Shown: positions 540-64,000, numbered from the stretch's first letter. The stretch: DNA of 64,000 nt from Candidatus Woesearchaeota archaeon (GCA_037439845.1 JBBIVF010000001.1:1842-65841), one strand, 5' to 3'. Notes: a model not told the origin generated them from the letters alone. Numbers and translations are program-made.

Positions 540-780
540 TTATAACGGCTTCTGGTTAATAATAATAAGGTTTTTAGGGTTTTTATATTTATTTTAATAT
601 AACGTTAAATTAACGTTATAACGATATTTTTTATAATGTCTTATTAAGGCTCATAAATACGTTATAATCGTTATGAAATCGTTATAACGTTATATAACGA
701 TAACGATAACGGTTATAACGTTATAATAAGTCTTATAAACATGTTTTACAGAAAAATCGTTATAACGGTTGAATTTTTTT
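540..780. repeat. Array of the 10-bp palindrome CGTTATAACG plus variants in an AT-rich intergenic region; possible regulator-binding iterons
   Basis: Perfect copies at 614-623, 680-689 and 768-777. GTTATAACG occurs at 712-720. Variants CGTTATAATCG (660-670), CGTTATATAACG and CGATAACGATAACGG lie between them. Related copies occur inside the adjacent ORF at 1029-1038 and 1050-1077. Confidence 0.7.
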
Positions 781-786
781 CAAAAA

Positions 787-1521
787 TTACTCATAGTTGT
801 AGAACTTCTTTATTTTCTCCTTATTTGAAATGGCGTATAATTTAAGTTTTCCTGGGCCAGAAAAGGCTTCTAAGGGATAATTTTTATTTTTTAAAGCATT
901 AATATAGACCTTTACTGAATTGGGGCTCATATTGAGCTTATTTGCTATATCAAAATATGATAATGGCACTGTAGACTCAAATAACAAGCTTAATATCCTT
1001 TTTTCCGAGCTGGTAAGAACATTAGAAACGTTATAACGCGTTATATCCTTAACGATATTATCGTTAGTAACGTTAGAAGGCCTTTCCTGAAGAGCAACCT
1101 TTTCTATTGTTGTTCTTGTTATTGCGAGCTCTTCAAGAATTTCTTTCTTTAATTGGTCGCGGTCTATTTTAGGAATCTCAACATAAGAGTCGATTATACT
1201 TTTGATATACTCGTCATCTACCTGAGACATAACTTCTAAGATATCCTTAAGTTTCTGAAGCATTTCTAGGATAACTGTGACTTTTTTGTCATGCTCTTTA
1301 TGGAGCTTGTTAAAGTGATTAATCCACTGATAAATTAGGTTTAAGTTCTCTTCGTGGTGTTTTTTTAAGTACTCATGTTTAGTGTGTAGATGATCAACTT
1401 TTTGGTTGAGAACTTCATTAACATATTTAACATGTCTAAAAGAATTGGCTATATTATTTGATAATAAAGAAAGTTCGTTTTTCGAATCTATATTAGTTCT
1501 TCTTTTTCTAAACAAACCCAT
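787..1521 (-). CDS. Hypothetical protein with a C-terminal winged-HTH DNA-binding domain (MarR/ArsR-like)
   Basis: 244-aa ORF. The C-terminus SEKRILSLLFESTVPLSYFDIANKLNMSPNSVKVYINALKNK is a typical wHTH. Its coding sequence itself contains the CGTTATAACG palindrome (1024-1077). Confidence 0.5.
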   Translation of the reverse strand: MGLFRKRRTNIDSKNELSLLSNNIANSFRHVKYVNEVLNQKVDHLHTKHEYLKKHHEENLNLIYQWINHFNKLHKEHDKKVTVILEMLQKLKDILEVMSQVDDEYIKSIIDSYVEIPKIDRDQLKKEILEELAITRTTIEKVALQERPSNVTNDNIVKDITRYNVSNVLTSSEKRILSLLFESTVPLSYFDIANKLNMSPNSVKVYINALKNKNYPLEAFSGPGKLKLYAISNKEKIKKFYNYE

Positions 1522-49663: not shown

Positions 49664-49904
49664 TATTTTTTTAATTTTTTTTAATGAATATTTATAATTA
49701 ATTTTTTTCTATATTGATGTTTATTTGTGGTTTATTTTCCATATGAAATTCAGGAGTTTTATGTTGAATATTATCTGAAAAATGTTTAATTTTCTATTAA
49801 TAGGCCTTAAAAATGTATTTTTCCACAGGAAATGAAGGAGGTATATATCTTGGAAAATATTTGTCTTTAAATAAAAGCATTTATAAACTAGTGGATTTTT
49901 AGTA

Positions 49905-49946: not shown

Positions 49947-50495
49947 ATGGATGAGAGCATTAAAAAAAATGTTAAGGTTGTGAATATAGTTGTTTCAAGT
50001 TCACTTGAACACGATATTCCTTTGGAAAAAGTTGCTGCAACATTATCTAATACAGAATACAATCCTGAACAATTTCCTGGATTAGTAATAAGAATAAAAG
50101 AACCAAAAACTTCTGCTCTCATTTTCAGTTCTGGAAAGATTGTGTGCACTGGTGCGAAATCCCTTGACAAAGTAGAAGAATCAATCCAGACAATAATCAA
50201 AAGTTTAGAAAAGATTGGCATACATATTAAGATTAAACCGAAAATTGTTGTGCAGAACATTGTGGCTGCAGGTAACATAAATATGGACCTAAATCTGAAC
50301 ACACTTGCAGTCAAGCTTGAAAACACAGAATATGAACCAGAACAATTCCCTGGTCTTGTCTATAAGCTGGCAGAAGCTAAAGCTACATTCTTGTTATTCT
50401 CAAACGGCAAGATAGTCTGCACAGGAACAAAGAGCGAAGATGAAGTATATACTGCATTGGATATGCTCATTGAGAATCTCAAGAAAGTAAAATAA
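49947..50495 (+). CDS. tbp: TATA-box binding protein
   Basis: Two direct repeats with the NxEYNPEQFPGLV(I/Y)(R/K) signature. 182 aa. Confidence 0.9.
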   Translation: MDESIKKNVKVVNIVVSSSLEHDIPLEKVAATLSNTEYNPEQFPGLVIRIKEPKTSALIFSSGKIVCTGAKSLDKVEESIQTIIKSLEKIGIHIKIKPKIVVQNIVAAGNINMDLNLNTLAVKLENTEYEPEQFPGLVYKLAEAKATFLLFSNGKIVCTGTKSEDEVYTALDMLIENLKKVK

Positions 50496-50570: not shown

Positions 50571-52592
50571 ATGTTAAATGTCAATGAACAAATAAGAAGG
50601 TTTAATGAATTTGTTGAAAAATATTATCTTGACACTTTATTAGAAAATGTCAGAAAGGGCAACAAGTTCCTAAAAGTGGATTTCTTGTTGTTGTCAAAAT
50701 ATGACCCTGAGCTTGCAGAAATTATATTTGAACAACCTGAAGAAGTCTTTAAGGCATTTGAGATTGCTCTTCTTCAATTTGATTATGCTCAAAAACCAGA
50801 TTATGTCAGGGTAAGATTCTATAATCTTCCTCCTTCTTCTTACATAGATATCAGAGACATAAGAGCAAAGGAAATAAACAAATATTTTTATGTAGAGGGA
50901 GTTGTAAGGCAAAAATCTGAAATAAGGCCGCAGGTCACGAGCGCGAGGTTTGAATGTCCTAGTTGCGGCAATATAATGAATGTTCTTCAACTAGATAAGA
51001 AGTTCAAAGAACCATCAAGATGTCCTTGCGGAAGAAGCGGAAAATTCAGGATGATTTCTAAAGAGCTGGTGGATGTGCAAGGACTAGACATAGAAGAAGC
51101 GCCTGAAAATCTCATTGGTGGAGAGCAGCCTAAAAGAATCAAGGTTTTCTTGAAAGAGGACCTTGTTAGTCCAATGTCAGACAAGAAAACAAACCCAGGA
51201 ACAAAGATAAGAGTATTTGGAATATTGAAAGAGGTGCCGATTGTGCTGCAGACAGGAGGCCAAAGCACAAGATTTGACTTGATTATTGAAGCAAATGAGA
51301 TAGAGCCAATCGAGGAGGATTTCGGAGAGCTGGCAATAGATGAGAAAACAAAACAAGAGATTCTTGAATTGAGCAAAGACCCTAAAATCATTCAAAAACT
51401 CATAGACAGCATTGCTCCAAGTATATATGGCCATGAAAGAGTGAAAGAGGCGCTTGTACTTCAATTGTTCGGAGGAGTTAGAAAACAGAGGTCTGATGGA
51501 GTTGTTTCCAGAGGAGATATGCACATCCTTCTCGTCGGAGACCCTGGAAGCGGTAAGAGTCAGTTGCTCAAGAGAACTGCTATTGTTGCACCTAAAGCGA
51601 GATTTGTTTCTGGAAAGGGAGCTTCTGGAGCTGGAATTACTGCAAGCGTTGTCAAGGACGAGTTTCTTAAAGGATGGACACTAGAGGCAGGAGCGCTTGT
51701 TCTTGCACACAAAGGTATGTGCATGATAGACGAGCTTGACAAGATGTCAAAAGAAGACAGGGCTGCGATGCACGAGGCACTTGAGCAGCAGACAGTAACA
51801 ATTTCAAAAGCGAATATTCAAGCCACTTTACGATGCGAGACAACTGTGCTTGCAGCAGCAAATCCAAAGTTCGGAAGATTCGATCCTTTTGAGCTTATTG
51901 CAAAACAGATCGACCTGCCTCCTTCTTTGATAAACAGGTTTGACCTTATTTTTCCGATAAAAGACCTTCCTGACAAGGACCGGGATGATACAATGGCTTC
52001 ATTCATACTCAATATTCACCAGACAAAAAAGACAGGAGATGCAGAAATCAAAACAGATCTTCTTAGAAAATATATTGCATTTGCCAGGCAAAATATTGTT
52101 CCTAGTTTGACTGACAGCGCAGTGCAGGAGATAAAATCATATTATGTCACATTGAGGAGTTCTGGCTCTGATGAAGGAGGAATAAAAAGCGTGCCTATTA
52201 ACGCAAGACAGCTTGAAGGATTGATAAGATTGGCAGAAGCTTCAGCAAGAGCAAGATTATCTGATAAGGTGACGAAAAAAGATGCGAAAAGAGCTATTGA
52301 GTTGCTTGATTTTTGTTTGAGACAGATAGGAGTTGACCCTAAAACAGGAAAACTTGATATTGACAGAATAAGTTCAGGAGTAACTGCATCTGAAAGGTCC
52401 AAAATTTCTGTTGTCAAACAGATAATAGCAGAGCTTGAAGAAAAGCTTGGAAAACAAATACCTATTAAAGAGCTTGTGATAAATGCTGATGAAAAAGGCA
52501 TAGACTCTGCAGAAGTAGAGGATATAATAGAGAAATTGAAAAGGTCAGGAGACATATTCGAACCCGAAAGAGGATTAATACAGAGGTTATAA
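50571..52592 (+). CDS. mcm: MCM replicative helicase
   Basis: C4 Zn finger CPSCGN...CPCG. Walker A GDPGSGKSQLL, Walker B IDELDKM, arginine finger SRFD and a C-terminal wH. 673 aa, no intein. Confidence 0.9.
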   Translation: MLNVNEQIRRFNEFVEKYYLDTLLENVRKGNKFLKVDFLLLSKYDPELAEIIFEQPEEVFKAFEIALLQFDYAQKPDYVRVRFYNLPPSSYIDIRDIRAKEINKYFYVEGVVRQKSEIRPQVTSARFECPSCGNIMNVLQLDKKFKEPSRCPCGRSGKFRMISKELVDVQGLDIEEAPENLIGGEQPKRIKVFLKEDLVSPMSDKKTNPGTKIRVFGILKEVPIVLQTGGQSTRFDLIIEANEIEPIEEDFGELAIDEKTKQEILELSKDPKIIQKLIDSIAPSIYGHERVKEALVLQLFGGVRKQRSDGVVSRGDMHILLVGDPGSGKSQLLKRTAIVAPKARFVSGKGASGAGITASVVKDEFLKGWTLEAGALVLAHKGMCMIDELDKMSKEDRAAMHEALEQQTVTISKANIQATLRCETTVLAAANPKFGRFDPFELIAKQIDLPPSLINRFDLIFPIKDLPDKDRDDTMASFILNIHQTKKTGDAEIKTDLLRKYIAFARQNIVPSLTDSAVQEIKSYYVTLRSSGSDEGGIKSVPINARQLEGLIRLAEASARARLSDKVTKKDAKRAIELLDFCLRQIGVDPKTGKLDIDRISSGVTASERSKISVVKQIIAELEEKLGKQIPIKELVINADEKGIDSAEVEDIIEKLKRSGDIFEPERGLIQRL

Positions 52593-53278
52593 TGATGGAA
52601 GAGGTTCAAAAAAGACAAATCGCGTACAAAACAAATATAACTAATATTGTGTCAGGAAGATTTGTCAGACAAGAGGGTTGGCTACCTAATTATATTATTG
52701 ATAATGATAATAATATGCTCTCCCGGGTGAATGTGCTAGGAGTTATAGTGTCTAAAGACAATATGCCTGAGGATAATTTTAGCGCAGTAACTATTGACGA
52801 TGGTTCTGCTAAAATACAGGTTCGTGATTTTGATAAAGAGAAAATGAATGATTTTGAAGTAGGAAATGTGGTTAATATTATCGGAAAAATAAGAGAATAT
52901 GCTGGCAATGTGTATATTTTTCCTGAAATAATGAAAAAATTGGATGATAATAGGTGGATATTAGTTAGAAAAAAAGAAATTGAGAAATTGAAAAAATTAG
53001 GGGTGTATGAAAAATATCAAGAACAAGAAACCAAAGTCATGAAAGAAGAGACATTTATCCAGGCAAAAGAAGAAGAGAATATTGAAGAGAGTGTTGATTC
53101 AGGAGAAAGCAGGAAAATATATGAACTAATTAAGACACTTGATAATGGAGATGGTGTTGATATAGATGTCGTGATAAAGGAATCTGGAATGAATAATTCA
53201 GAAAGCATCATACTTGAGCTTTTAAAAAATGGTGAAGTTTTTGAACTGAAACCAGGACGTATCAAGGCATTAGAATAA
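52592..53278 (+). CDS. OB-fold plus C-terminal winged-helix protein, translationally coupled to mcm (RPA32/Stn1-like architecture)
   Basis: Start overlaps the mcm stop (ATGATGG). OB-fold-like segment VNVLGVIVSKD...AVTIDDGSAKIQVRDFD...VGNVVNIIGKIREYAGNVYIF. C-terminal wH-like IYELIKTLDNGDGVDIDVVIKESGMNNSESIILELLKNGEVFE. Confidence 0.5.
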   Translation: MMEEVQKRQIAYKTNITNIVSGRFVRQEGWLPNYIIDNDNNMLSRVNVLGVIVSKDNMPEDNFSAVTIDDGSAKIQVRDFDKEKMNDFEVGNVVNIIGKIREYAGNVYIFPEIMKKLDDNRWILVRKKEIEKLKKLGVYEKYQEQETKVMKEETFIQAKEEENIEESVDSGESRKIYELIKTLDNGDGVDIDVVIKESGMNNSESIILELLKNGEVFELKPGRIKALE

Positions 53279-54112
53279 AATCGGTGTTATGTATACTTCT
53301 AATATTGCTGCTATAAATAAAAGTATCAAGGAAATTGCCAGCAATGTTCCTGCATCTCCCATAATATTCTTGAAATTCTTTTTTCTATAGTCGTGATTGA
53401 CAACTGCAAAAGATATTATGCCGCCTGATAATCCTGCTATGAAATAAGAGGCCATTTCAGGTATGCCATGTAGCGCATATTTCAGCAAGGCAAAAGAAAT
53501 TATGGAGAAATAACTAGATATTTTGCTGAAACCAACAAGCTCAACTATCTTGGCAAGTTCTATCCTTATGAAATTTCCTATGACTGTACCCAGCACTGTT
53601 GCGTTCCAGATCAATATGAATATGGCTCCAATTCCATAAAGCAAAGAAAATAAAACACAGAGCAGCAGGACTCTGAGATTGTTGAAGAATATCTTGAACA
53701 ACAATCCTGATTTAATTGCTGCTGCGTTTATACTTGTTAGGGTGTTTGATTGTGCTGAAAAAACACTGAATACTATATTTTCAGGCAATATCACATACCA
53801 GAAAGCTGTTGCGAGCACAAAACCTATAAACATCCAGATAAAGAAACTTATTGCTTTCATGTGCTCTTTCAGCATCTTAGGCTCTTTTGTTGTTTTCGTG
53901 TCTTTTTTTTCTTCTAATCTTATTACTCTGTACATAATCGGGAATGCAGCGAAGACTGCGAGAAAAACAGTTACCATTGATGCCTGTGACCTAAATATCC
54001 AGTAACTTAAGAAAATAGCAATAGTCATATAAAGAAAACTCAAGAACATCATACTATATGGCTTCTTCTCAGCAAGTATTGGATTTATTATTGATTCAAA
54101 AACCATAACCAT
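53270..54112 (-). CDS. Polytopic membrane protein (DUF95/SpoIIM-like?)
   Basis: 280 aa, 6-7 TM helices. Confidence 0.4.
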   Translation of the reverse strand: MVMVFESIINPILAEKKPYSMMFLSFLYMTIAIFLSYWIFRSQASMVTVFLAVFAAFPIMYRVIRLEEKKDTKTTKEPKMLKEHMKAISFFIWMFIGFVLATAFWYVILPENIVFSVFSAQSNTLTSINAAAIKSGLLFKIFFNNLRVLLLCVLFSLLYGIGAIFILIWNATVLGTVIGNFIRIELAKIVELVGFSKISSYFSIISFALLKYALHGIPEMASYFIAGLSGGIISFAVVNHDYRKKNFKNIMGDAGTLLAISLILLFIAAILEVYITPILF

Positions 54113-54192
54113 AAAATTGAGGTTGTGCTATATAAAGATTACTGAGAACTGATATTATATGTTTTATTTGATATATTAGTTGTTATATATTT

Positions 54193-55899
54193 TTACTTAT
54201 TGTATATTATTTCTATAATCTTGGCATATGCTGGTCTTGTCAAGAAAACGCCTATTGAAACTCCAACAATAGTTACAATGGCAAATCCTTTCACTAAACC
54301 TGCTCCTGCAAAAAGCAACGGCACCATTGCAATTGAGGTGGCAAAATAAGCACCCATTATTATGAAAAATGCTTTCTTTAATTTAGTTTTCCAGTCATAG
54401 ATTTCTCTTTTCTTTCCGAATAATGTCTCATCTGCGATTATAATCTGGTCATCTACTCCTGTTCCTGTTGCAACCACAATACCTGCTATTGCTGCAAGAT
54501 CAAGATTCCAGCCTGCCAGAGCCGCGAATCCCAGAAGCAGAAGAACTTCTATCAGCATTGTAAAAAACATTGGAATGCTTACCCATAATTTTCTGTATCT
54601 AATGAAAACAACTAATGCCACACAAATAATAGAAACAAATCCTACTAAAATCGCGTTCTTAAGGAATTGCTCTCCTAAAATAGGTGAGATAGAATCTGAT
54701 TTGACTATTTTTAATTTGACAGGAAGACTGCCTGTGACTAAAATTGTCTGCAATCTTTTCATCTGTGCTGCTGAATCCTGTGCTGCTAATGCCCTTGTTT
54801 GCCCTGTTCCTGAGCCTGATATTGAAATGTCAGTGACAGGTCTTCCTTTCAGGTCTGCTCCAATATTGAGTGAATCAACCAGCTGGTCATCGAGATAAAG
54901 ATCTAATTTCTCAGAAAGATACTGCTCTCCGTTTTGATCTACAATAGCCAAGTTCTTTGTCATGTCTGCCTGTTTTTGAGCTGCTTCTGGACTTAATGTG
55001 ATAGAGAAACTAAATATGCAAAAATGTTCATTTCCGCTTTGACCGCAACCTCTTCTCGGGTCTATTGCATATGCGCATTGAGGTGTCCGACAGACATATT
55101 TTATATCCTGTCCTCCTTTGAAGACAGTTGTATTTCCTATCTTTGCCTCGAACTTTCCCTGTTGTGATATTAATGTCTTTACTTCTTCTTCGTTTGCTCC
55201 TGCTATCTCGACTAAAATATAATGATTTCTTGAAAGGTCACTGACTTTCGCAACGACAATATCGCTAAGGCCATAAACATTCAATCTCTGCTTGAGATTG
55301 TCAATAATCATATCCATATCTTCGCTAGTGGTATTTTCTTCTGGCTGAAGCAAGACTCTTGTGCCTCCTTCAATATCCAATCCTTTTTTCAGATTGTTTG
55401 TAGGTGCCTCATATACAGTAATGCCTAATGGCTCTGTGCCTATTATTTTCTTTTCTTGTTTTGGGACTTCCTTTTTAATTTCTCTTATCATAGTTTGATT
55501 TTTTTGTTCATCGAAATACGACTCGTTAACAAGAATTATTTCTGTTTCATTCAAGTCAATTATTTCGTATAATGGTTTTGTTGTTATTGTATATACTTGC
55601 TTGTTTGTCTTGATTAGTATAGGCACATCTGGCTGCAGGTCTTTTGTCGCCATGAAATATTCTTCAACTGTGTTTGTTGCAATGCCATTTACAAACAATA
55701 TCCTTTCTTTTGAAACTGGTCTTGTTCCTGGTTCTGGGCTTTTTAGGCCAGCTGCTTCTGCTGCGCTGTTTTTCGCAACTGCCCTTATGGCAACTCCCTC
55801 AACACCAAATTTAGGGTGAATTGCTACTAAGGACATGATTATGAATAATATCAGAATTATTATTCTTAGACTTGTTAATAGCTGCTTAATCTTGGACAT
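54193..55899 (-). CDS. secD: Protein-export membrane protein SecD
   Basis: N-terminal TM, a large periplasmic-type domain and a C-terminal 6-TM bundle (GWNLDLAAIAGIVVATGTGVDDQIII). Overlaps secF by 14 nt. Confidence 0.8.
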   Translation of the reverse strand: MSKIKQLLTSLRIIILILFIIMSLVAIHPKFGVEGVAIRAVAKNSAAEAAGLKSPEPGTRPVSKERILFVNGIATNTVEEYFMATKDLQPDVPILIKTNKQVYTITTKPLYEIIDLNETEIILVNESYFDEQKNQTMIREIKKEVPKQEKKIIGTEPLGITVYEAPTNNLKKGLDIEGGTRVLLQPEENTTSEDMDMIIDNLKQRLNVYGLSDIVVAKVSDLSRNHYILVEIAGANEEEVKTLISQQGKFEAKIGNTTVFKGGQDIKYVCRTPQCAYAIDPRRGCGQSGNEHFCIFSFSITLSPEAAQKQADMTKNLAIVDQNGEQYLSEKLDLYLDDQLVDSLNIGADLKGRPVTDISISGSGTGQTRALAAQDSAAQMKRLQTILVTGSLPVKLKIVKSDSISPILGEQFLKNAILVGFVSIICVALVVFIRYRKLWVSIPMFFTMLIEVLLLLGFAALAGWNLDLAAIAGIVVATGTGVDDQIIIADETLFGKKREIYDWKTKLKKAFFIIMGAYFATSIAMVPLLFAGAGLVKGFAIVTIVGVSIGVFLTRPAYAKIIEIIYNK

Positions 55900-56905
55900 T
55901 TTGCTCTTTTACTTTAGGTTTTTCCAGATACCATCTCAACACAGGATAGTTCCATAACCATGTGAAAATCAGGTCTGCGATGAGACCAATAAATATTATT
56001 GTCATAATCTGCCTGAACACGTCTGATTGCGCAATTAAAAGTCCTATAAACGCAGCAGTAATTGTGGTTAGCGTCATTGTCCAGCCGGGTTTAATCGCGT
56101 TCAATACTCTTTCAATCATTGAATATTCTGTATCTTTTATCATCTTCGTGGAAAGAAGAATGTCTGTGTCAATTGAGTATCCTATTAACATTAACATTGC
56201 TGCTATGCCTGAAGTGGAAACTTTTATTCCTAAAATGTTTATTATTGCCATAGTGAAAACTATATCTGCGAAAGCACAAGAGATCACAGTTATAGAAGGT
56301 ATGAATTTCTTGAAATATAACATGACAACAATACCCATACCCAAGAATGCTAATAACACACTGAAGAGAGTTTCTTTAAAGAAGCTTTCTCCTAATGTGC
56401 TTCCACTCATGTCAATACTGAATCTATCCTTATCTAATTTTCCTAATTTTTGCTCAACCAGAGAGAGAAGTTGTTTGTCTTCAATGTCAGAGGCCTCAAT
56501 TATTATTCCAGATATTGCTCCTCCTGACTTGATGTATCTTATTAAAACATCTCCCTGAATATTGTCCTTGAGATATTTTTCTAGAGCAGGGATGTCGATG
56601 CTATTGTCTATAGATATTGTGAGAGTTATGCCTCCTGTTAAGGACACTGCTTTGGGAAATAGATCTCCTGTTTGAATATAGTGAAAAATCACTATGCTTA
56701 ATGCGATAATGAATAAAAAGATAGGTAATATCATTATTTTTTTGTAATGAACATCATAGAACTGTATTATTTTGCTATGTTTCTTTGAATGTGAATGCTC
56801 AAGATGAGTTTCATTGGTTTTCTGTTGTTGTTTTTTTGCTTCTATTTCTTTCAGTCTTTCTTCTCTTTTTCTGAGTCTTCTTTCTCTTCTTTTGCTTATT
56901 TCCAT
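55886..56905 (-). CDS. secF: Protein-export membrane protein SecF with a basic N-terminal extension
   Basis: C-terminal LIGYSIDTDILLSTKM and the TM bundle match SecF. About 50-aa Lys/Arg/Glu-rich N-terminal extension. Confidence 0.8.
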   Translation of the reverse strand: MEISKRRERRLRKREERLKEIEAKKQQQKTNETHLEHSHSKKHSKIIQFYDVHYKKIMILPIFLFIIALSIVIFHYIQTGDLFPKAVSLTGGITLTISIDNSIDIPALEKYLKDNIQGDVLIRYIKSGGAISGIIIEASDIEDKQLLSLVEQKLGKLDKDRFSIDMSGSTLGESFFKETLFSVLLAFLGMGIVVMLYFKKFIPSITVISCAFADIVFTMAIINILGIKVSTSGIAAMLMLIGYSIDTDILLSTKMIKDTEYSMIERVLNAIKPGWTMTLTTITAAFIGLLIAQSDVFRQIMTIIFIGLIADLIFTWLWNYPVLRWYLEKPKVKEQNVQD

Positions 56906-57050
56906 CTTTAATCGGGTTTTTTTTGGTTCTTTTAAAAAGTTTTCTAATACTGAAACACCATATGTCCTTTGTTTCGTGTGGAGGTGAAATTTTAGAAAAG
57001 AGTAGTTAGAACAGAGTAGTCTGGTTTTATTCAGTGAATATTTAGTGAAT

Positions 57051-57190
57051 TATAAGTAAAAGTTTATATTATTATAAGTAAAAGTTTATTATAAGTAAAA
57101 GTTTATATTATTATAAGTAAAAGTTTATATTATTATAAGTAAAAGTTTATTATAAGTAAAAGTTTATATTATTATAAGTAAAAGTTTATA
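57051..57190. repeat. Seven tandem copies of the 17-bp core TATAAGTAAAAGTTTAT, spaced 22/17/22/22/17/22; candidate origin-recognition (ORB-like) repeats
   Basis: Core ATAAGTAAAAGTTTAT starts at 57052, 57074, 57091, 57113, 57135, 57152 and 57174. It lies about 630 bp upstream of orc1/cdc6, next to a stretch that is more than 85% AT. Confidence 0.8.
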
Positions 57191-57199
57191 GAGGGTGTT

Positions 57200-57560
57200 T
57201 TGTGATTTCTATAAGGAAGGTGGTTTTTTGAAAAATAATGATTTTTTGTTTGGATTTGGTTTTTTATTGATTTTTATTTTTTTATTATTTATTTAATTTT
57301 TATTTTTAGTTTTTATTATATTTTTTTAGTTGATTTAACAATATGTTAGTTTTTATTCTTTTAATATTAATTTTATTTTTCAATGTTAGTTTTATTTTTA
57401 ATATTAAACATATTTTTATTTCATTTCATAATTTTCCATATAGAAACCAAATTTTTCGAACATGACAAAAATAAAAAAATTTCTTAGAATTTTGTTTAAT
57501 TTTACTTGAAAAAATGATTATTTTCTATATTTTTTCGTTAAAAAATTAATTTATTGAATA
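57200..57560. other. Extremely AT-rich stretch; candidate DNA unwinding element of oriC
   Basis: Almost pure A/T runs (tttttattgatttttatttttttattatttatttaattttt...) between the tandem repeats and orc1/cdc6. Confidence 0.4.
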
Positions 57561-57786
57561 ATTATTTAAAATACACTTTATTAAAAACAAAAGAGATGAT
57601 AAAAATCAAAAGACTCTGATATCACTTCAACACCAAAAAATTCAAATATTTCCAAATGAAATAGAGGTGTGTTGGTGTCTAAATCTGAAATCTAATGGCT
57701 AAATTAAAAAGGCGCTATAAACTATATATTCTATTATAATAAGGATTATTTCACAATGACAACAATTTAATCCCTCAAAACAAACA

Positions 57787-57794
57787 TTTATATA
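57787..57794 (+). promoter_or_regulatory. Putative TATA box (tttatata) for orc1/cdc6, consistent with a leaderless transcript
   Basis: The octamer ends 25 nt upstream of the ATG at 57820. Typical archaeal TATA-to-TSS spacing would put the TSS at or near the start codon. Confidence 0.3.
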
Positions 57795-57819
57795 CCTCTG
57801 TTTCGAATGGAAAAATCTC

Positions 57820-59058
57820 ATGAATAACGAAAAACCCAAAATCTCTGATTATTTTGAATCATTCATCAAAAAAACACCTATTTTCTTGGATAAAAAGGTA
57901 CTTCAAGCACCCTATATGCCAGAAAATATTCCTCACAGAGATAATGAAGTGCAAAAAATCGCAAACATACTTGCGCCTGTCTTAAGAATGGAAAAACCTT
58001 CAAATCTTTTCATATATGGAAAAACAGGGACCGGAAAGACACTATCTGTAAAGCACGTCTCCAATGAAATCCTCAAAATTGCTCAAAGAGAAAATATCAA
58101 TGTGAAAATATTCTATATTAATTGCAAATTGAAAAAAGTAACAGACACAGAATATAGATTACTGGCTCATCTTGTCAGTGGTTTCGGAAAAGAAATACCT
58201 CCAACAGGATTGCCTACTGATGAAGTATATAACATTTTTTTCAAGCTGCTTGATTCTGAAAAACAACTTGTAATATTGGTGCTGGATGAGATAGATCAAT
58301 TATATAAGACCGGAAATGAAATACTATATAATCTAACCAGGATAAATTCAGAGTTAAAAAATTCACAATTATCCATTGTAGGAATATCAAATGACCTGAC
58401 ATTCACCGACTCATTAGATCCAAGAGTAAAATCATCATTATCGGAAGAGGAGATAATATTTCCGCCATACAATGCAATCCAGCTTCAAGACATACTTTTC
58501 CAGAGAGCGAAATATGCATTCAGAGAAAACTCAATAACAGAAGGAGTAATTCACAAATGCGCGGCATACGCTGCAAGAGAACACGGAGATGCGAGAAGAG
58601 CACTTGAGCTTCTGAGAGTAGCAGGAGAATTGGCAGAAAGAGAAGGCTCTGATATTGTTCAATTAAAACACATAGATGAGGCAGAAGAAAAAATAGAGAA
58701 AGACAGGGTAATCGATATAACAAAGACACAACCAAAACAATTCCAGGCAACACTTTTCGCAATTCTCAGCATTGAAAACAAACAAAAAAACGACAAGCTA
58801 TCAAAACACAACAAACCAGCAATATATACAGGAGATGTCTATGACCTCTATAAAAGCATATGCGACAAGATAGGATTGAGACCCCTGACACAAAGAAGAG
58901 TGTCTGACATCCTCGCCGAGTTAGATATGATGGGAATAATCAATGCAAAAGTAATATCATATGGAAGATACGGCAGGACAAGAGAAATAACCGTATCATT
59001 GTCTCAGCAAGTGAGAGAAAATATAGAAAAAAACCTAAAGCAAGAACTCCATCTTTAG
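57820..59058 (+). CDS. cdc6: Orc1/Cdc6 replication initiator
   Basis: Walker A GKTGTGKT, Walker B LDEID and sensor motifs. C-terminal winged helix. 412 aa. Confidence 0.9.
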   Translation: MNNEKPKISDYFESFIKKTPIFLDKKVLQAPYMPENIPHRDNEVQKIANILAPVLRMEKPSNLFIYGKTGTGKTLSVKHVSNEILKIAQRENINVKIFYINCKLKKVTDTEYRLLAHLVSGFGKEIPPTGLPTDEVYNIFFKLLDSEKQLVILVLDEIDQLYKTGNEILYNLTRINSELKNSQLSIVGISNDLTFTDSLDPRVKSSLSEEEIIFPPYNAIQLQDILFQRAKYAFRENSITEGVIHKCAAYAAREHGDARRALELLRVAGELAEREGSDIVQLKHIDEAEEKIEKDRVIDITKTQPKQFQATLFAILSIENKQKNDKLSKHNKPAIYTGDVYDLYKSICDKIGLRPLTQRRVSDILAELDMMGIINAKVISYGRYGRTREITVSLSQQVRENIEKNLKQELHL

Positions 59059-59081
59059 TCTGGAGAAAATATTTTGCCAAC

Positions 59082-60521
59082 ATGAAAAAGAAAGAGATAA
59101 TTCAAGAGCTATTGAAAAAAGGCATTCTGATTTCAAAAGACCTTGAGGAAGAGGATTTCAATTTCATAGACCAAGAAAAATTAAACATCATTATCGCAAA
59201 CAATCCATTCATTCTGGACAAAAAATTACTTTTTTCCTTGTTTCCGGAAAAACAAGCACAGGGCAATTTCGAGATAGTAATGAATTATACCAAAACACCT
59301 GTCAAAAGAGAGATATCTCACTTTATTCAACATTTCGAGAAAAGATTTGAGGCAATAAAGAAAATATTAATGCAAAGAGACGAGCTCCAGAACATATTAT
59401 CAATAAATAGAATCTTCACAAAAGGTCAAAAAGAGCAGGTGGCGCTGATAGGGATGGTATATAACAAGCAGACAACAAAAAACGAGAACATAATACTCGA
59501 AATCGAGGACAAAACAGGCGTGGCAAAAGTGCTGGTCAATAAAAGCAAACCCGAATTACATAAAGAGGCAAAGGATATTGTGCTTGATGAAACCATAGGT
59601 GTTGTCGGCAGTATCGGAAACGGAATACTATTCGCGAATGAAATATATTTTCCAGATATTCCCACAACAAAAGAGCTTAAAAAAGCGCCTGAAGAAGTAT
59701 ATGCTCTTTTCCTGTCTGATACTCATGTAGGCAACAAAAAATTCCTGAAAGAGGAGTTCTCAAGGTTTTTGGACTGGCTTAATCAAAGAATAGGAGATGA
59801 AAATCAGAAGAACGTGGCATCAAAAGTCAGATACATATTCATCACAGGAGACCTTGTTGAGGGCGTCGGATATTATCCCAACCAAGAGAGTGAATTAGAC
59901 CCTGAAACGCCGGATATCAAGGCCCAGTATTCAAAACTTGCCTTTTATCTCAGCCAAATTCCGGAAAATATCACGATTTTCATATGCGCAGGAGACCACG
60001 ATGCCATGAGAATAGCACAACCCCAAGCACCTCTGTATGATGATTTCGCAGAAGACCTGTATAAAATAAATAATGTAAAAATACTCTCAAACCCATCTAT
60101 TGTCACAATACATAAAACACAAAAATTTCCAGGAATAGATGTGCTTCTTTATCACGGATACTCATTTATTTATTATTCAGACACAGTAGAAAGCATAAGG
60201 TCGCAAGGAGGTATGGAGAGAGCAGACCAAATAATGAAATTCCTGTTGAGAAGGAGGCATCTTTCACCCACTCATTCTGCCTCACTTTACATACCTGACC
60301 CGGAAAAAGATTATCTTATGATTGAAAAGGTTCCTGACATTATAACTTCTGGCCACATACACAAAGTTACCATCTCCAACTACAGAAACGTGTCTTTACT
60401 AAACAGCTCCTGCTGGTTGCCTTTGACAGATTATCAGGAAAAAAGAGGAATAAACCCTCATCCTGCGAGAGTGCTGTGCATGAATCTCCAGACAAGAGAA
60501 ACAAAGGTGCTCAGGTTTTAA
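59082..60521 (+). CDS. polD1: DNA polymerase II (PolD) small subunit DP1
   Basis: 479 aa. OB domain then a calcineurin-like phosphoesterase domain (LFLSDTHVG, ITGDLVEG, GDHD, GHIH). Confidence 0.85.
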   Translation: MKKKEIIQELLKKGILISKDLEEEDFNFIDQEKLNIIIANNPFILDKKLLFSLFPEKQAQGNFEIVMNYTKTPVKREISHFIQHFEKRFEAIKKILMQRDELQNILSINRIFTKGQKEQVALIGMVYNKQTTKNENIILEIEDKTGVAKVLVNKSKPELHKEAKDIVLDETIGVVGSIGNGILFANEIYFPDIPTTKELKKAPEEVYALFLSDTHVGNKKFLKEEFSRFLDWLNQRIGDENQKNVASKVRYIFITGDLVEGVGYYPNQESELDPETPDIKAQYSKLAFYLSQIPENITIFICAGDHDAMRIAQPQAPLYDDFAEDLYKINNVKILSNPSIVTIHKTQKFPGIDVLLYHGYSFIYYSDTVESIRSQGGMERADQIMKFLLRRRHLSPTHSASLYIPDPEKDYLMIEKVPDIITSGHIHKVTISNYRNVSLLNSSCWLPLTDYQEKRGINPHPARVLCMNLQTRETKVLRF

Positions 60522-60522
60522 A

Positions 60523-63500
60523 ATGAAAGAATACTTTGATGCAATAAATTCAGGAGTAATAGAGCAATTTAAGATAGCACAGAAAGCCAGAGAAAAAAAA
60601 CTCGACCCAGAAGACTATGTGGAAATACAATTAACAAAGAACATGGCTGAAAGGGTTGTAGGATTGATATCTGTGATTGCTCCTCAAATAAAGGATTCCG
60701 GTGTTGTGGAAAGGATAATAGAACTGGAAAAAGAATTCGGAATATTGGACTGGAGAGTGTGCCTGCAAATAGCTTTGGAGATAGCGCAGCAGAAATACTG
60801 CAAGTTCAATGACCAGAAAGAAGCAATTGAAGTAGGAATCAGAACAGGATTCGCATACTCAACAGTCGGAGTGGTATCTTCTCCTATAGAAGGATTCACC
60901 CATATTGATATCAAAGACAGATACGATAGAAAAGGAAAATATTTTTGCATAAATTTCGCAGGGCCGATAAGAAATGCAGGAGGAACAAATGCAGCCCTGT
61001 GTGTGCTTATCGCAGATTATGTCAGGAAAAAACTCGGATTTAGCAAATACGACCCTAATGAGCAAGAGATAAAGAGATGTTATACTGAATTATGCGATTA
61101 TCATGAGCGCGTTACTAATTTACAATATTTTCCGTCTGAAGAGGAGACAATTTTCTTGATGAAAAACATACCGATTGAAATAGGAGGCGAGCCTTCAGAA
61201 AAGGTTGAAGTATCCAACTATAAAGACATACCCAGAATACCAACAAATTACCTGCGTTCAGGATATTGCCTGCTACATTCTTCCTGTATTCCGCTAAAAG
61301 CACCCAAACTTTGGAAACAAATTTCTAAATGGGGAAAAGAATTTGATATGGATGACTGGAATTTTTTAGGCGAATTCTGCGAATTACAGAAAAAGATGAA
61401 GACAATGAAAAAACTCAATTCAGAAGAATCAAAATCAGAATCAATTTTGACACCTTCTTACACATATATTGCGGACATTGTAGCAGGAAGGCCTGTGCTT
61501 TCACATCCTCTTGCCTCAGGAGGACTAAGGCTGAGATATGGCAGGGCAAGAACAACAGGATACTCTGCTTGCGGACTACATCCTGCAACAATGCTTGTAT
61601 TGAATTCATTTATAGGAAACGCAACTCACATAAAACTTGAAAGACCGTCGAAAGGAGCTGCTATTACCTCTTGCTCAACGATTGAAGGACCGATAGTTAA
61701 ACTAGAAAACGGCAATGTAATATTTCTAGAAACAGAAGCACTGGCAAAACAACATAAAAAAGAGATAAAAGAAATACTTTATCTAGGAGACATATTAATT
61801 TCATACGGAGATTTCTTTAACAGGGCACATCCTCTTGTTCCTGCTGGATATTGCGAAGAATGGTGGATAAAAGAATTTGAAAAGGCCTGTGTGACACTTT
61901 TTGGCACATTAGATTTCAGCAAATTAGCTGAATTTTTGTCTATTGATGAAAGTACAATAAATAAAATATACAAAAAATACATGATAATAAAACCATCAGC
62001 AGAAGAAGCATTGACAATCTCAAAAAAAATGAACATTCCATTACATCCTTATTATACATATCATTTTTCACAAATATCTATTGAGAAAGCTGTTGAATTA
62101 CTTGAAGCGCTAAGAAACTCCACTATACAAGATGAAAAACTAATAATGAAAAATGAACCTCAAGTAAAAAGGGCACTAGAAATAATCGGAGTTCCTCATA
62201 TAAATGCCTCAAATGAATTCATTGTCATAGAAAAGCCTCATTCAAAAATAATCTTCTCTAATCTTATTTTATCAACCCAAAAAATTGATAATATCAAAAA
62301 AACTATCCCTCAATTCAACAACACAATAGATTTTCTTAATAGTTTTCTCGAGTATAAGATAAGAGACAAATCAGGAACATTTATAGGAGCGAGAATGGGG
62401 CGGCCAGAAAAAGCAAAAATCAGGAAGCTAAAAGGCAACCCTCATGGATTGTTTCCAGTAGGTGCTGAAGGAGGAAGAATGAGGTCGTTTCAGGCAGCAA
62501 TGCAAGCAGGAAAAGTAAGGTCTGATTTTCCTATCTTTTTTTGCAATAAATGTGAAAAGGAGACTATTTTTAAAATATGTGAAGAGTGCAGAACAGAGAC
62601 AACGCAAAAATATTATTGTGACCTGTGCGGAATTATTGACACAAAAACATGTGCTCATGGAAATGCAAAACCATTCCGAAAAAAAGATATCGATATAAAC
62701 AATTACATAAATAATTGCCTAGATAAATTGCAGATGAAAACTGCACCTGACTTGATAAAAGGAGTGAAAGGCACTTTCTCAGATGAGCATGTTCCAGAAC
62801 ATCCAATAAAAGCAATATTAAGAGCAAAACACGAGTTATATGTGAATAAAGACGGAACAGTAAGGTATGATTCCAGTGAAGTGCCAATAACACATTTCAA
62901 ACCAAAAGAGATAGGAGTAAGTATAGAGAGATTAAAATCATTGGGTTATGAAAAAGACATCAAAGGAGCGCCTTTGGAAGAAGAGGACCAAATACTTCAA
63001 CTTCTGCCTCAAGACATAATATTACCTTGCTCTCCTGAATCTCCTGATGAACCTGCTGACGAAATTTTATTCAGAACAGGATTGTTCATAGACGAGCTTT
63101 TAGAGAAATTCTACGGACTGCCAGCATTCTATAATTTCAAAAGCAAGGAAGATCTTGTTGGAGTGCTTGTTCTTGGCTTGGCGCCGCATACCTCTGCGGC
63201 TGCTGTCGGAAGAATAATTGGTTTTTCTAAGACACAAGGATTTTTAGCACATCCTGTTTTTCATGCTGCAATGAGAAGAGACTGCGATGGAGATGAAAGC
63301 TGTATTCTGTTGGTTATGGACGCTTTCCTGAATTTCTCAAGAAAATATCTGCCTGGAAAAAGAGGCTCTACAATGGATGCACCTCTTGTGGTGACACCCG
63401 TGATAAACATACAGGAAGTAGATGATATGGTTTTTGACCTTGATATTGCTTATTCTTATCCTCTTGAGTTATATACTGCTGCTTTAGAATTCAAAAAACC

Positions 63501-64000
63501 CTGGGATGTGAAAGTCAAGCAGATATCCTCTGTGTTATTGAACGAGAACCCATATTTAGACCTGGGTTTCACGCACGATACTGAAAATCTCAATATGGGC
63601 GTGCTTTGTTCCGCGTATAAAAAAATACCTTCCATGGAAGACAAGATGAAATCGCAGATGGAATTGGCAGAAAAAATAAGAGCAGTTGATGAAAATGATG
63701 TTGCCAGGCTGGTCATAGAAAAACATTTTTTAAAAGATATCAGAGGAAATCTTAGAAAATTCTCACAGCAAAAATTCAGATGCTCAAAATGCAATGAGTC
63801 ATACAGAAGGCCTCCTTTACTTGGAGCGTGCCTGAAATGTAACGGCAATATTATCTTCACGATTTCTGAAGGATTCATAACAAAGTACCTTGAACCCTCG
63901 TTATCTCTTGCCAAGAAGTATGCAATTCCAGAGTACCTGAAACAGACATTAGAACTCACAAAAAGGCTGGTTGAAGGAAATTTCGGAAGAGAAAAAGAAA
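60523..64000 (+). CDS. polD2: DNA polymerase II (PolD) large subunit DP2, 5' portion; continues beyond the window
   Basis: ATG at 60523, 1 nt after the DP1 stop. The open frame runs to the window end. FCINFAGPIRNAGGTNAA and the Zn finger CSKCNESYRRPPLLGACLKCNG are DP2 hallmarks. It is missing from the ORF track only because no stop codon falls within the window. Confidence 0.85.
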   Translation, partial: MKEYFDAINSGVIEQFKIAQKAREKKLDPEDYVEIQLTKNMAERVVGLISVIAPQIKDSGVVERIIELEKEFGILDWRVCLQIALEIAQQKYCKFNDQKEAIEVGIRTGFAYSTVGVVSSPIEGFTHIDIKDRYDRKGKYFCINFAGPIRNAGGTNAALCVLIADYVRKKLGFSKYDPNEQEIKRCYTELCDYHERVTNLQYFPSEEETIFLMKNIPIEIGGEPSEKVEVSNYKDIPRIPTNYLRSGYCLLHSSCIPLKAPKLWKQISKWGKEFDMDDWNFLGEFCELQKKMKTMKKLNSEESKSESILTPSYTYIADIVAGRPVLSHPLASGGLRLRYGRARTTGYSACGLHPATMLVLNSFIGNATHIKLERPSKGAAITSCSTIEGPIVKLENGNVIFLETEALAKQHKKEIKEILYLGDILISYGDFFNRAHPLVPAGYCEEWWIKEFEKACVTLFGTLDFSKLAEFLSIDESTINKIYKKYMIIKPSAEEALTISKKMNIPLHPYYTYHFSQISIEKAVELLEALRNSTIQDEKLIMKNEPQVKRALEIIGVPHINASNEFIVIEKPHSKIIFSNLILSTQKIDNIKKTIPQFNNTIDFLNSFLEYKIRDKSGTFIGARMGRPEKAKIRKLKGNPHGLFPVGAEGGRMRSFQAAMQAGKVRSDFPIFFCNKCEKETIFKICEECRTETTQKYYCDLCGIIDTKTCAHGNAKPFRKKDIDINNYINNCLDKLQMKTAPDLIKGVKGTFSDEHVPEHPIKAILRAKHELYVNKDGTVRYDSSEVPITHFKPKEIGVSIERLKSLGYEKDIKGAPLEEEDQILQLLPQDIILPCSPESPDEPADEILFRTGLFIDELLEKFYGLPAFYNFKSKEDLVGVLVLGLAPHTSAAAVGRIIGFSKTQGFLAHPVFHAAMRRDCDGDESCILLVMDAFLNFSRKYLPGKRGSTMDAPLVVTPVINIQEVDDMVFDLDIAYSYPLELYTAALEFKKPWDVKVKQISSVLLNENPYLDLGFTHDTENLNMGVLCSAYKKIPSMEDKMKSQMELAEKIRAVDENDVARLVIEKHFLKDIRGNLRKFSQQKFRCSKCNESYRRPPLLGACLKCNGNIIFTISEGFITKYLEPSLSLAKKYAIPEYLKQTLELTKRLVEGNFGREKE

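What the first reader, a model, noticed from the sequence alone, without database searches (positions are those of the whole stretch)
56950..60525. Candidate oriC: seven 17-bp tandem repeats plus an AT-rich stretch (candidate DUE) directly upstream of orc1/cdc6-DP1-DP2
The gene order origin-orc1/cdc6-PolD small-PolD large is the arrangement established for Pyrococcus and other Euryarchaeota. Here an 870-bp intergenic region upstream of orc1/cdc6 holds seven copies of TATAAGTAAAAGTTTAT with a regular 22/17-bp spacing pattern (ABAABA). A tract of more than 85% AT follows. The repeat is unlike the canonical ORB consensus, so it may be a lineage-specific origin recognition element. MCM and TBP lie within 7 kb, making this a replication island.
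Basis: partly seen in the sequence, partly recalled or inferred. Interest (0 to 1): 0.6.

Follow-up and report, generated by a model that had tools for sequence, protein, structure and literature searches.

The report
Ordinary archaeal origin, young repeat inside
The seven eye-catching 17-bp repeats are most likely a recent, species-specific tandem duplication inside its AT-rich zone, not a new recognition element.

Summary
Seven exact copies of TATAAGTAAAAGTTTAT (57051-57189, spacing 22/17/22/22/17/22) lie in the 914-bp gap between a SecF-like gene and orc1-DP1-DP2, followed by about 86-90% AT DNA.

The origin reading is supported for a different reason. The gap holds three canonical ORBs (TTCCAnnnGAAAYnnAGG+G-string) at 56963-56984(-), 57649-57670(+) and 57792-57813(-). 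These are the three best ORB matches in the 64-kb window. The same ORB(-)/AT-rich/ORB(+) layout recurs upstream of orc1 in 80 Woesearchaeota relatives. ORB density there is 85-fold higher than elsewhere, and about 20-fold higher counting noncoding DNA only.

The 17-mer has no ORB resemblance (-19 bits). It is absent from relatives and from two public collections, and has no substitutions between copies. It also sits in the least stable 100 bp of the window. Tandem repeats are common in all AT-rich intergenic DNA of these genomes. I read the array as a young slippage product within the unwinding zone.

One unexpected result: a conserved central dyad, TTTTC(T/A/C)ATATAGAAAA (57432-57447), is found only between the ORBs. 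It resembles the Sulfolobus ucm in position.

No replication data exist, and skew is uninformative here.

The parts
56963..56984 (-). Distal ORB (minus strand: CCTCCACACGAAACAAAGGACA). Its TCCA end faces the AT-rich zone.
   Evidence: The core TCCACACGAAAC is one of only 3 matches to TCCAnnnGAAAC in the window. PWM score is 18.9 bits, third best in the window. Relatives carry a minus-strand ORB 150-1200 bp upstream of orc1 in 40 of 60 loci.
56992..57050 (+). Older short tandem duplications left of the array: a 14-mer x2 (TTAGAAAAGAGTAG / TTAGAACAGAGTAG) and an 11-mer x2 (TATTCAGTGAA / TATTTAGTGAA).
   Evidence: TRF rows. The 11-mers resemble the first half of the 22-bp unit, and AGTRAA recurs from 57033 through the array.
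57049..57190 (+). The flagged array: 7 exact copies of TATAAGTAAAAGTTTAT, with or without an ATTAT spacer. It is a 61-bp (22+17+22) super-unit duplicated exactly, plus one more copy. 90% AT.
   Evidence: Positions 57090-57189 are the least stable 100 bp of the window by nearest-neighbour energy. ORB PWM best score is -19 bits. The array is not found in relatives or public collections.
57205..57218 (-). Degenerate TTCC-N5-GAAA dyad (minus strand TTCCTTATAGAAAT), directly right of the array.
   Evidence: Seen. Not a canonical ORB (-3 bits). Status uncertain.
57219..57431 (.). Core AT-rich tract and candidate duplex unwinding element. It includes 57277-57376 at 93% AT.
   Evidence: No real ORFs and no Rfam match in the whole intergenic region.
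57432..57447 (+). Central dyad TTTTCCATATAGAAAC. This is the window's copy of the conserved Woesearchaeal element TATTTATTTTC(T/A/C)ATATAGAAAATAA.
   Evidence: It is the only match in the window. In relatives there are 19 sites within 1200 bp upstream of orc1 and 0 in 553.7 kb elsewhere. Reverse test: 13 of 120 metagenome contigs carrying the exact 18-mer have it 115-742 bp upstream of an orc1 homologue.
57649..57670 (+). Proximal ORB with G/T-string (TTTCCAAATGAAATAGAGGTGT, followed by GTTGGTGTC), 169 bp upstream of the orc1 ATG.
   Evidence: PWM 20.5 bits, second best in the window. Relatives carry a plus-strand ORB at -50 to -260 in 42 of 60 loci.
57787..57794 (+). orc1 promoter TATA box, TTTATATA.
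   Evidence: Read. The same TTTATA(T/A)A-then-ORB arrangement occurs in relatives. Window genes typically have TTTAWATA 25-40 nt upstream of the ATG.
57792..57813 (-). Promoter-overlapping ORB (minus strand TTTCCATTCGAAACAGAGGTAT), between the TATA box and the orc1 start codon.
   Evidence: Best PWM hit of the window, 23.9 bits. A minus-strand ORB lies within 60 bp upstream of orc1 in relatives, fused to the TATA box.
57820..59058 (+). orc1/cdc6 initiator gene, Orc1-1 type.
   Evidence: Pfam Cdc6_lid, Cdc6_C and AAA. Best solved relatives are S. solfataricus Cdc6-1 (2qby_A, E 9e-103) and A. pernix ORC1 (2v1u_A, E 4e-92).
59082..60521 (+). PolD small subunit DP1.
   Evidence: Pfam DNA_pol_E_B, Metallophos and OB fold. 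Follows orc1 in 79 of 80 relatives.
60523..64000 (+). PolD large subunit DP2. It runs off the window end.
   Evidence: Pfam PolC_DP2_N, central and catalytic domains, E 1e-77 to 1e-112.

Best explanation
The 914-bp SecF-orc1 intergenic region is a standard Orc1/Cdc6-type chromosomal replication origin of a Woesearchaeota (DPANN) archaeon.

Orc1 is predicted to bind two inverted canonical ORBs, 56963-56984(-) and 57649-57670(+). Their dyad ends face a 668-bp, 84% AT zone, where MCM would be loaded and the DNA opened. This mechanism is inferred from Sulfolobus and Pyrococcus. A third ORB (57792-57813) lies between the orc1 TATA box and the start codon and probably lets Orc1 repress its own gene (inferred). 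A conserved central dyad (57432-57447) sits between the ORBs.

The seven 17-bp repeats are not the recognition element. They are a recent tandem duplication confined to this species. The likely history is a 22-mer repeat, then loss of the 5-bp ATTAT spacer in one unit, then exact duplication of the resulting 61-bp block. The array lies in the distal part of the AT-rich zone. Its most likely effect is to add very easily melted DNA. It may have no sequence-specific role.

The confidence of 0.6 is for this whole statement. Taken separately, I put about 0.85 on the region being an origin and about 0.85 on the repeats not being the Orc1 sites.
For: Shown:
- ORBs: the three ORB matches are the top three PWM hits in 128 kb of searched strand.
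- ORB enrichment: the ORB pattern occurs 134 times in 78.9 kb upstream of orc1 in 80 relatives against 11 times in 553.7 kb elsewhere. Counting noncoding DNA only, the density is 2.69/kb against 0.13/kb.
- Architecture: 31 relatives have an inverted ORB pair 94-919 bp apart with median 82% AT. The window has 668 bp at 84% AT.
- Helix stability: the inter-ORB zone is the most AT-rich DNA of the window, and the array is its least stable 100 bp.
- Initiator type: the Orc1 protein is closest to the two archaeal initiators listed in the PDB search. From my own knowledge, both were solved bound to ORB DNA.
- Synteny: orc1-DP1-DP2 is kept in 79 of 80 relatives.
- Array is not ORB-like: best ORB score is -19 bits, against a median of -5.4 for random windows.
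- Array is young: there are no substitutions among the 7 copies, while the three ORBs share only 13-17 of 22 positions.
- Array is not conserved: its specific k-mers occur in 0-2 of 31 relatives' inter-ORB zones, as expected by chance. There are no hits in metagenome or viral collections.
- Tandem repeats are generic: they cover 10.0% of origin IGRs and 8.2% of other IGRs in relatives.

Literature: the ORB core TTCC..GAA (PMC1904270). The ORB(-)/DUE/ORB(+) pattern, with a dyad plus a G-rich element (bioRxiv 10.64898/2026.08.15.744077). Inverted ORBs flanking the DUE in Sulfolobus (PMC12141716).
Against: - There is no direct evidence of initiation. No marker-frequency data are available, and GC/AT skew in the window follows the coding strand.
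- The distal ORB has a weak G-string (AAAGGACATATGG).
- The array is more regular and more complex than the TA-rich, imperfect repeats in relatives. The best relative array scores 184 against 284 here. It is preceded by older related 11-bp units. A sequence-specific role therefore cannot be excluded.
- No close relative (more than 68% Orc1 identity) was available, so conservation at the species or genus level is untested.
- Copy number may be collapsed in the assembly.
Confidence: 0.6

Rival explanations
1. One reading: the 17-bp repeats are a lineage-specific origin recognition element bound by Orc1 in place of canonical ORBs.
For: Seven regularly spaced direct repeats lie next to orc1 inside the candidate origin. 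Multiple tandem mini-ORBs are known in Methanothermobacter and Pyrococcus origins (PMC1904270).
Against: Canonical ORBs are present and are the conserved feature of the lineage. The repeat lacks the TTCC..GAA core and scores -19 bits. It is not conserved in 80 relatives whose Orc1 is 56-68% identical. The initiator is a standard Orc1-1 type.
Confidence: 0.05
2. The array is a binding platform for an accessory origin factor. Candidates are a lineage-specific nucleoid-associated protein analogous to Sulfolobus UBP at the ucm, or an iteron- or centromere-like array for a segregation or regulatory protein.
For: It lies between the inverted ORBs, where Sulfolobus has the essential ucm (PMC12141716). 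The unit contains G and is not simple TA repeat. Related AGTRAA units with 11-bp spacing precede the array, which suggests some persistence. The 17-22 bp unit size is iteron-like (my own knowledge).
Against: There is no conservation in relatives. There are no further copies in 64 kb beyond chance, whereas UBP-type sites are dispersed. Zero divergence between copies argues for a very recent origin. The mixed 22/17 spacing puts neighbouring sites on different helix faces. The Sulfolobus ucm TTATACAAAC is absent. A different element, the central dyad, is the conserved non-ORB motif.
Confidence: 0.15
3. The array is a stack of promoter-like BRE/TATA sites (AAAAGTTTATAT) that binds TBP/TFB. It would either drive transcription into the AT-rich zone, helping it open, or produce a small RNA.
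For: Each 22-bp unit contains AAAAGTTTATATTA. This is close to the orc1 promoter AAACATTTATATA and to the TTTAWATA boxes 25-40 nt upstream of other window genes.
Against: TATA-like strings are trivial in 90% AT DNA. No ORF or Rfam family lies downstream. The first T-run follows about 40 nt after the last copy. Neither flanking gene needs the array, since both have their own TATA boxes.
Confidence: 0.1
4. The region is an Orc1-binding regulatory site for orc1 expression only, and replication starts elsewhere or is origin-independent.
For: The strongest ORB overlaps the orc1 promoter. A second ORB-like pair lies upstream of TBP at 49736-49841. Skew gives no support for an origin.
Against: An inverted ORB pair bracketing hundreds of bp of extreme AT DNA plus a conserved central dyad is more than autoregulation requires. 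This layout is conserved across the lineage.
Confidence: 0.08

Closest known systems
Pyrococcus/Thermococcales oriC (oriC-cdc6/orc1-dp1-dp2)
   Same: The origin lies directly upstream of orc1/cdc6, followed by the PolD small and large subunit genes. ORBs and mini-ORBs share the TTCC...GAA core, form an inverted pair and flank AT-rich tracts (PMC1904270).
   Different: No ORB cluster was detected inside dp1 here. The organism is a DPANN archaeon with about 33% GC. It has a conserved central TTTTCTATATAGAAAA dyad, for which I found no description in the papers I searched.
Sulfolobus oriC1 (ORB3-DUE-ORB2 with the ucm bound by UBP)
   Same: An Orc1-1-type initiator. Inverted ORBs flank an AT-rich DUE. 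A single short conserved motif lies between them (PMC12141716).
   Different: The ucm sequence TTATACAAAC is absent. UBP is reported to be restricted to Sulfolobales and Desulfurococcales (PMC12141716). The inter-ORB distance here is 668 bp, against about 130 bp in Sulfolobus.
Plasmid iterons / tandem mini-ORB arrays
   Same: Direct repeats of 17-22 bp, clustered next to an initiator gene inside an origin.
   Different: The repeat has no ORB core. The spacing is mixed, 22 and 17 bp. There is no divergence between copies and no conservation in relatives. The cognate initiator already has canonical sites.
Variable-number tandem repeats in AT-rich noncoding DNA
   Same: The units are perfect. Variants arose by indel and block duplication rather than substitution. 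The array lies in the least stable DNA. Unrelated tandem repeats are common in other IGRs of relatives.
   Different: Copy-number variation itself could not be observed, because no second assembly of this species was found.

Membership tests
Orc1/Cdc6-type archaeal oriC (ORB(-)/DUE/ORB(+)) | Intergenic region adjacent to a gene for the initiator Orc1/Cdc6 | tested here: met
   The orc1 gene at 57820-59058 has Cdc6_lid, Cdc6_C and AAA domains. Its best PDB relatives are archaeal Cdc6-1/ORC1.
Orc1/Cdc6-type archaeal oriC (ORB(-)/DUE/ORB(+)) | ORB elements: a TTCC...GAA dyad core followed by a G-rich string | tested here: met
   Three ORBs score 18.9-23.9 bits and are the top three hits of the window. 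The G-string is clear at 57649-57678, weak at the distal ORB, and replaced by the TATA box at the promoter ORB.
Orc1/Cdc6-type archaeal oriC (ORB(-)/DUE/ORB(+)) | An inverted pair of ORBs flanking an AT-rich unwinding element | tested here: met
   ORB(-) at 56963-56984 and ORB(+) at 57649-57670 bracket 668 bp at 84% AT, the most AT-rich and least stable DNA of the window.
Orc1/Cdc6-type archaeal oriC (ORB(-)/DUE/ORB(+)) | Motifs and layout conserved at the orthologous locus in relatives | tested here: met
   ORBs are 85-fold enriched upstream of orc1 in 80 relatives. Of 60 loci with enough upstream sequence, 42 have a proximal ORB(+), 40 a distal ORB(-) and 28 both. The noncoding-only control gives 2.69/kb against 0.13/kb.
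Orc1/Cdc6-type archaeal oriC (ORB(-)/DUE/ORB(+)) | Compositional skew switch at the site | tested here: inconclusive
   Cumulative GC skew rises through the whole window with no turn at 57 kb. AT skew follows the coding strand. Only 6 kb lies to the right of the site.
Orc1/Cdc6-type archaeal oriC (ORB(-)/DUE/ORB(+)) | Replication actually initiates there (marker frequency, initiation-point mapping, ARS activity) | not testable with these tools
   The organism is an uncultured MAG. No read-depth or experimental data are available.
ORB / mini-ORB (applied to the 17-bp repeat) | TTCC...GAA core matching the lineage's ORB matrix | tested here: not met
   The best PWM score in 57040-57200 is -19 bits. 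Random 161-bp windows have a median of -5.4.
ORB / mini-ORB (applied to the 17-bp repeat) | Recurrence upstream of orc1 in relatives | tested here: not met
   Repeat-specific 8- and 9-mers occur in 0-2 of 31 inter-ORB zones, as expected by chance. blastn-short finds only 12-14 nt matches with E of 0.2 or more.
Sulfolobus-type ucm (UBP site) | Motif TTATACAAAC within the DUE | tested here: not met
   There is no match with up to 1 mismatch in 56906-57819. The window has 7 matches against 7.6 expected. The motif sequence is taken from bioRxiv 10.64898/2026.08.15.744077.
Plasmid-type iterons | Direct repeats with uniform helical phasing, serving as the sites of the adjacent initiator | tested here: not met
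   The spacing alternates between 22 and 17 bp. The adjacent initiator is Orc1, which has its own canonical sites.
Archaeal BRE/TATA promoter (applied to the repeat unit) | A-rich BRE plus TTTAWATA box, with a transcribed gene about 25 nt downstream | tested here: inconclusive
   The sequence AAAAGTTTATAT resembles the window's promoters. No ORF or known RNA lies downstream. Transcription cannot be tested.

The most novel reading that the evidence does not exclude
Woesearchaeal origins carry a conserved non-ORB cis element, the central dyad TATTTATTTTC(T/A/C)ATATAGAAAATAA, at 57432-57447 in the window. It sits between the inverted ORBs and would be the binding site of a still unknown, lineage-specific origin factor. 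In function it would parallel the Sulfolobus ucm/UBP pair, or it could mark the initiation point. On this reading, the 17-mer array of this species could be a second, amplified accessory site.
Probability: 0.3. Interest if true: 0.55.

Novelty: new member of a known kind. Interest (0 to 1): 0.3.

Why it matters
The result gives a well-anchored origin annotation for a DPANN (Woesearchaeota) genome. It shows that these reduced, uncultured archaea keep the standard Orc1/ORB origin design, including an ORB on the orc1 promoter. It also warns that the most conspicuous repeats in an origin need not be the initiator sites.

The conserved central dyad is a concrete target for asking whether lineages outside the Sulfolobales have their own ucm/UBP-like origin accessory factor. 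PMC12141716 raises this question explicitly.

A practical point: contigs of these genomes break just upstream of orc1 about five times more often than expected. Origins are therefore under-represented in MAGs.

Tried and rejected
- GC/AT skew over the window follows the coding strand and is not informative.
- Rfam scans of the window at gathering threshold and of the IGR at E up to 1 found no RNA family in the region.
- A small-ORF scan of the IGR found only low-complexity ORFs of 25-57 aa.
- Searches for two adjacent 17-mers in metagenome contigs and viral contigs found 0 hits.
- Look-up of the window's own Orc1, to fetch the full contig or other assemblies, found nothing on record. Copy-number variation and assembler details therefore could not be checked.
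- I first thought tandem repeats were origin-specific in relatives. A noncoding-only control rejected this: 10.0% against 8.2% TRF coverage.
- My first noncoding control for ORB density was confounded, because split origin zones were counted as 'other'. I redid it.
- The Sulfolobus ucm motif is absent.
- Literature searches for DPANN/Woesearchaeota origin descriptions and for the dyad sequence found nothing relevant.
- I considered mini-CRISPR, mobile-element end and missed-gene readings of the array and dropped them. The spacers are 0 or 5 nt, there are no flanking inverted repeats, and there is no ORF.

Full report
**Observation**

The window carries seven exact copies of TATAAGTAAAAGTTTAT on the + strand, at 57051, 57073, 57090, 57112, 57134, 57151 and 57173. 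Start-to-start spacing is 22/17/22/22/17/22. With up to 3 mismatches there are 9 matches against 1.36 expected, and no shuffle reaches 9.

TRF describes 57049-57190 as a 61-bp unit, 2.3 copies, 100% identical, score 284. This is the strongest tandem repeat of the window. The array is therefore a 22-mer (the 17-mer plus ATTAT) in which one unit lost the spacer. The resulting 22+17+22 block was then duplicated exactly.

The array lies in the 914-bp gap (56906-57819) between a SecF-like gene on the minus strand and orc1/cdc6 (57820-59058). DP1 (59082-60521) and DP2 (from 60523) follow. MCM (50571-52592) and TBP (49947-50495) lie upstream. DNA to the right of the array is 86% AT over 57225-57640 and 93% over 57277-57376.

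**Organism**

The Orc1 protein's nearest relatives are Woesearchaeota/Nanoarchaeota (DPANN) MAG proteins at only 62-68% identity. No close relative is available.

The two ends of the gap carry a direct repeat, CCTTTGTTTCGTGTGGA and CCTCTGTTTCGAATGGA (family D10). Read on the minus strand these are TCCACACGAAACAAAGG and TCCATTCGAAACAGAGG, which is the canonical archaeal ORB core. TCCAnnnGAAAC occurs only three times in the window, and two of those are here.

I fetched 80 orc1 loci of relatives. With this window-derived pattern, 50 of 54 matches fall within 1.2 kb upstream of orc1. A matrix built from those sites, scanned over the window, puts its three best hits in this one gap:
- 57792-57813(-), 23.9 bits
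- 57649-57670(+), 20.5 bits: TTTCCAAATGAAATAGAGGTGT, followed by GTTGGTGTC
- 56963-56984(-), 18.9 bits

The slightly generalised pattern TCCAnnnGAAAYn(2-4)GG occurs 134 times in 78.9 kb upstream of orc1 and 11 times in 553.7 kb elsewhere, an 85-fold difference. Restricted to noncoding segments, the density is 2.69/kb against 0.13/kb.

This matches published descriptions of ORBs. They have conserved TTCC and GAA cores (PMC1904270) and consist of a dyad plus a G-rich element (bioRxiv 10.64898/2026.08.15.744077).

**Architecture**

In relatives the recurring layout has three parts:
- a minus-strand ORB 150-1200 bp upstream of orc1 (40 of 60 loci);
- a plus-strand ORB at -50 to -260 (42 of 60 loci);
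- often a minus-strand ORB fused to the orc1 TATA box, within 60 bp upstream.

Thirty-one loci have a clean inverted pair 94-919 bp apart with median 82% AT. The window has 668 bp at 84% AT. This is the ORB(-)/DUE/ORB(+) pattern used to define Cdc6-type origins (bioRxiv 10.64898/2026.08.15.744077) and shown to be required in Sulfolobus (PMC12141716).

The inter-ORB zone is the most AT-rich DNA of the window at 100, 200 and 400 bp scales. The initiator is closest to S. solfataricus Cdc6-1 (2qby_A, E 9e-103) and A. pernix ORC1 (2v1u_A, E 4e-92). orc1-DP1-DP2 synteny holds in 79 of 80 loci. I conclude, with about 0.85 confidence, that this is a chromosomal origin of the standard kind.

The promoter ORB lies between the TATA box (57787-57794) and the ATG. 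This suggests autorepression of orc1, which is an inference.

**What the 17-mer array is**

- It has no ORB resemblance. The best score is -19 bits, against a median of -5.4 for random windows.
- Its specific k-mers occur in 0-2 of 31 relatives' inter-ORB zones, as chance predicts. Only generic TA-rich k-mers are enriched.
- Two adjacent copies are found nowhere in metagenome contigs or viral contigs.
- blastn-short against 200 fetched loci gives only chance matches.
- There are no extra copies elsewhere in the window beyond chance.
- The seven copies have no substitutions, whereas the three ORBs in the same gap share only 13-17 of 22 positions. The array has been changing by indel and block duplication faster than by point mutation.
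- It is 90% AT, and 57090-57189 is the least stable 100 bp of the whole window by nearest-neighbour energy.

Relatives also have tandem repeats between their ORBs, but these are unrelated, mostly TA-rich and imperfect. A control showed that such repeats are about as common in other intergenic DNA of the same loci: 10.0% against 8.2% coverage, and 21 of 38 against 20 of 56 regions. They are therefore a property of AT-rich noncoding DNA in these genomes, not of origins.

My best reading is a young, species-specific slippage product that forms part of the easily melted zone. It may have no sequence-specific role.

**Points that keep other readings alive**

- The array is more perfect and more complex than any array in the relatives.
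- It is preceded by older related 11-bp units. AGTRAA recurs at 57033 and 57044 and then in every copy.
- Each 22-bp unit contains AAAAGTTTATAT, which resembles the promoters of this genome.

An accessory-factor array (0.15) and a TBP/TFB-binding, promoter-like array (0.10) therefore remain possible. No ORF or Rfam family lies in the gap. The Sulfolobus ucm TTATACAAAC is absent.

**Unexpected result: a conserved central dyad**

K-mer enrichment in the relatives' inter-ORB zones pointed to TATAGAAAA, found in 13 of 31 zones against 1.4 expected. In context this is a dyad, TATTTATTTTC(T/A/C)ATATAGAAAATAA, often the perfect palindrome TTTTCTATATAGAAAA.

TTCNATATAGAAA occurs at 19 sites within 1.2 kb upstream of orc1 and nowhere in the other 553.7 kb. 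It is single-copy, and it lies between the ORBs wherever both are detected. The window has exactly one copy, TTTTCCATATAGAAAC at 57432-57447.

As a reverse test, I took the first 120 metagenome contigs holding the exact 18-mer ATTTTCWATATAGAAAAT. Fifteen encode an Orc1 homologue, and in 13 of them the dyad lies 115-742 bp upstream of the orc1 start.

In position it parallels the Sulfolobus ucm, a single essential motif midway between ORB2 and ORB3 that is bound by the lineage-restricted protein UBP (PMC12141716). I found no description of this dyad in the searchable literature. Whether Orc1 binds it (it resembles an ORB dyad with one extra spacer base), another protein binds it, or nothing does is unknown.

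**Limits**

- There are no replication data.
- Skew is uninformative in this window.
- No congeneric genome is available.
- The assembly may have collapsed the array. The own contig could not be retrieved.
- Seventeen of 80 relatives' contigs end within 600 bp upstream of orc1, against 3.5 expected. This shows that the region is hard to assemble.

**Verdict**

The candidate-origin call is right and ordinary. The proposed role of the repeats is not supported. The central dyad is the part worth following up.

Noticed in passing
window 57432-57447 (also L004, L005, L007, L008, L009, L012, L024, L028, L033, L034, L041, L048, L049, L052, L056, L058, L060, L067, L080): A conserved central dyad, TATTTATTTTC(T/A/C)ATATAGAAAATAA, occurs as a single copy between the inverted ORBs. 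There are 19 sites upstream of orc1 and 0 elsewhere in the relatives. Of 120 metagenome contigs with the exact 18-mer, 13 have it 115-742 bp upstream of an orc1 homologue.
   Followed up: partly
window 49703-49841 (HerA-TBP intergenic region): A second ORB-like cluster: TTTCCATATGAAATTCAGGAG (49736-49757, 12.6 bits) and TTTCCACAGGAAATGAAGGAGG (49820-49841, 17.6 bits), both on the + strand. A dyad-like CATCAATATAGAAAAAA lies on the minus strand at 49703-49719. This could be a secondary Orc1-binding site upstream of TBP/MCM, like the dp1 cluster of Pyrococcus.
   Followed up: no
L001, L003, L008, L010, L013, L014, L019, L021, L022, L025, L026, L035, L036, L043, L055, L061, L073 (5' ends): Seventeen of 80 relatives' contigs end within 600 bp upstream of orc1, against 3.5 expected from contig lengths. 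Several of these ends lie in TA-rich repeats. The origin zone is therefore an assembly breakpoint in Woesearchaeota MAGs.
   Followed up: partly
window 57205-57218 and 57190-57204: Directly after the last 17-mer come a G/T-rich string, AGAGGGTGTTTTGTG, and a minus-strand TTCCTTATAGAAAT dyad. This dyad has the same N5 spacing as the central dyad. The two dyads are inverted around the 93% AT core. Neither scores as a canonical ORB.
   Followed up: partly
L032, L034, L046, L052, L079 (upstream flanks) versus window 50571-56905: In five relatives, MCM, an OB-fold protein and SpoIIM-like(-) lie directly upstream of the origin. The window has the same block, but with SecD/SecF-like genes (54193-56905) inserted between it and the origin.
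   Followed up: no
window 594-1076: An AT-rich start of the window (about 25% GC) contains many copies of palindromic ACGTTATAACGTTAT / TAACGTTA units (TRF rows). Their function is unknown.
   Followed up: no
window 56992-57050: Two further short tandem duplications lie between the distal ORB and the array: a 14-mer x2 and an 11-mer x2. The whole stretch 56992-57190 is therefore made of tandem repeats. The 11-mers resemble the first half of the 22-bp unit.
   Followed up: partly
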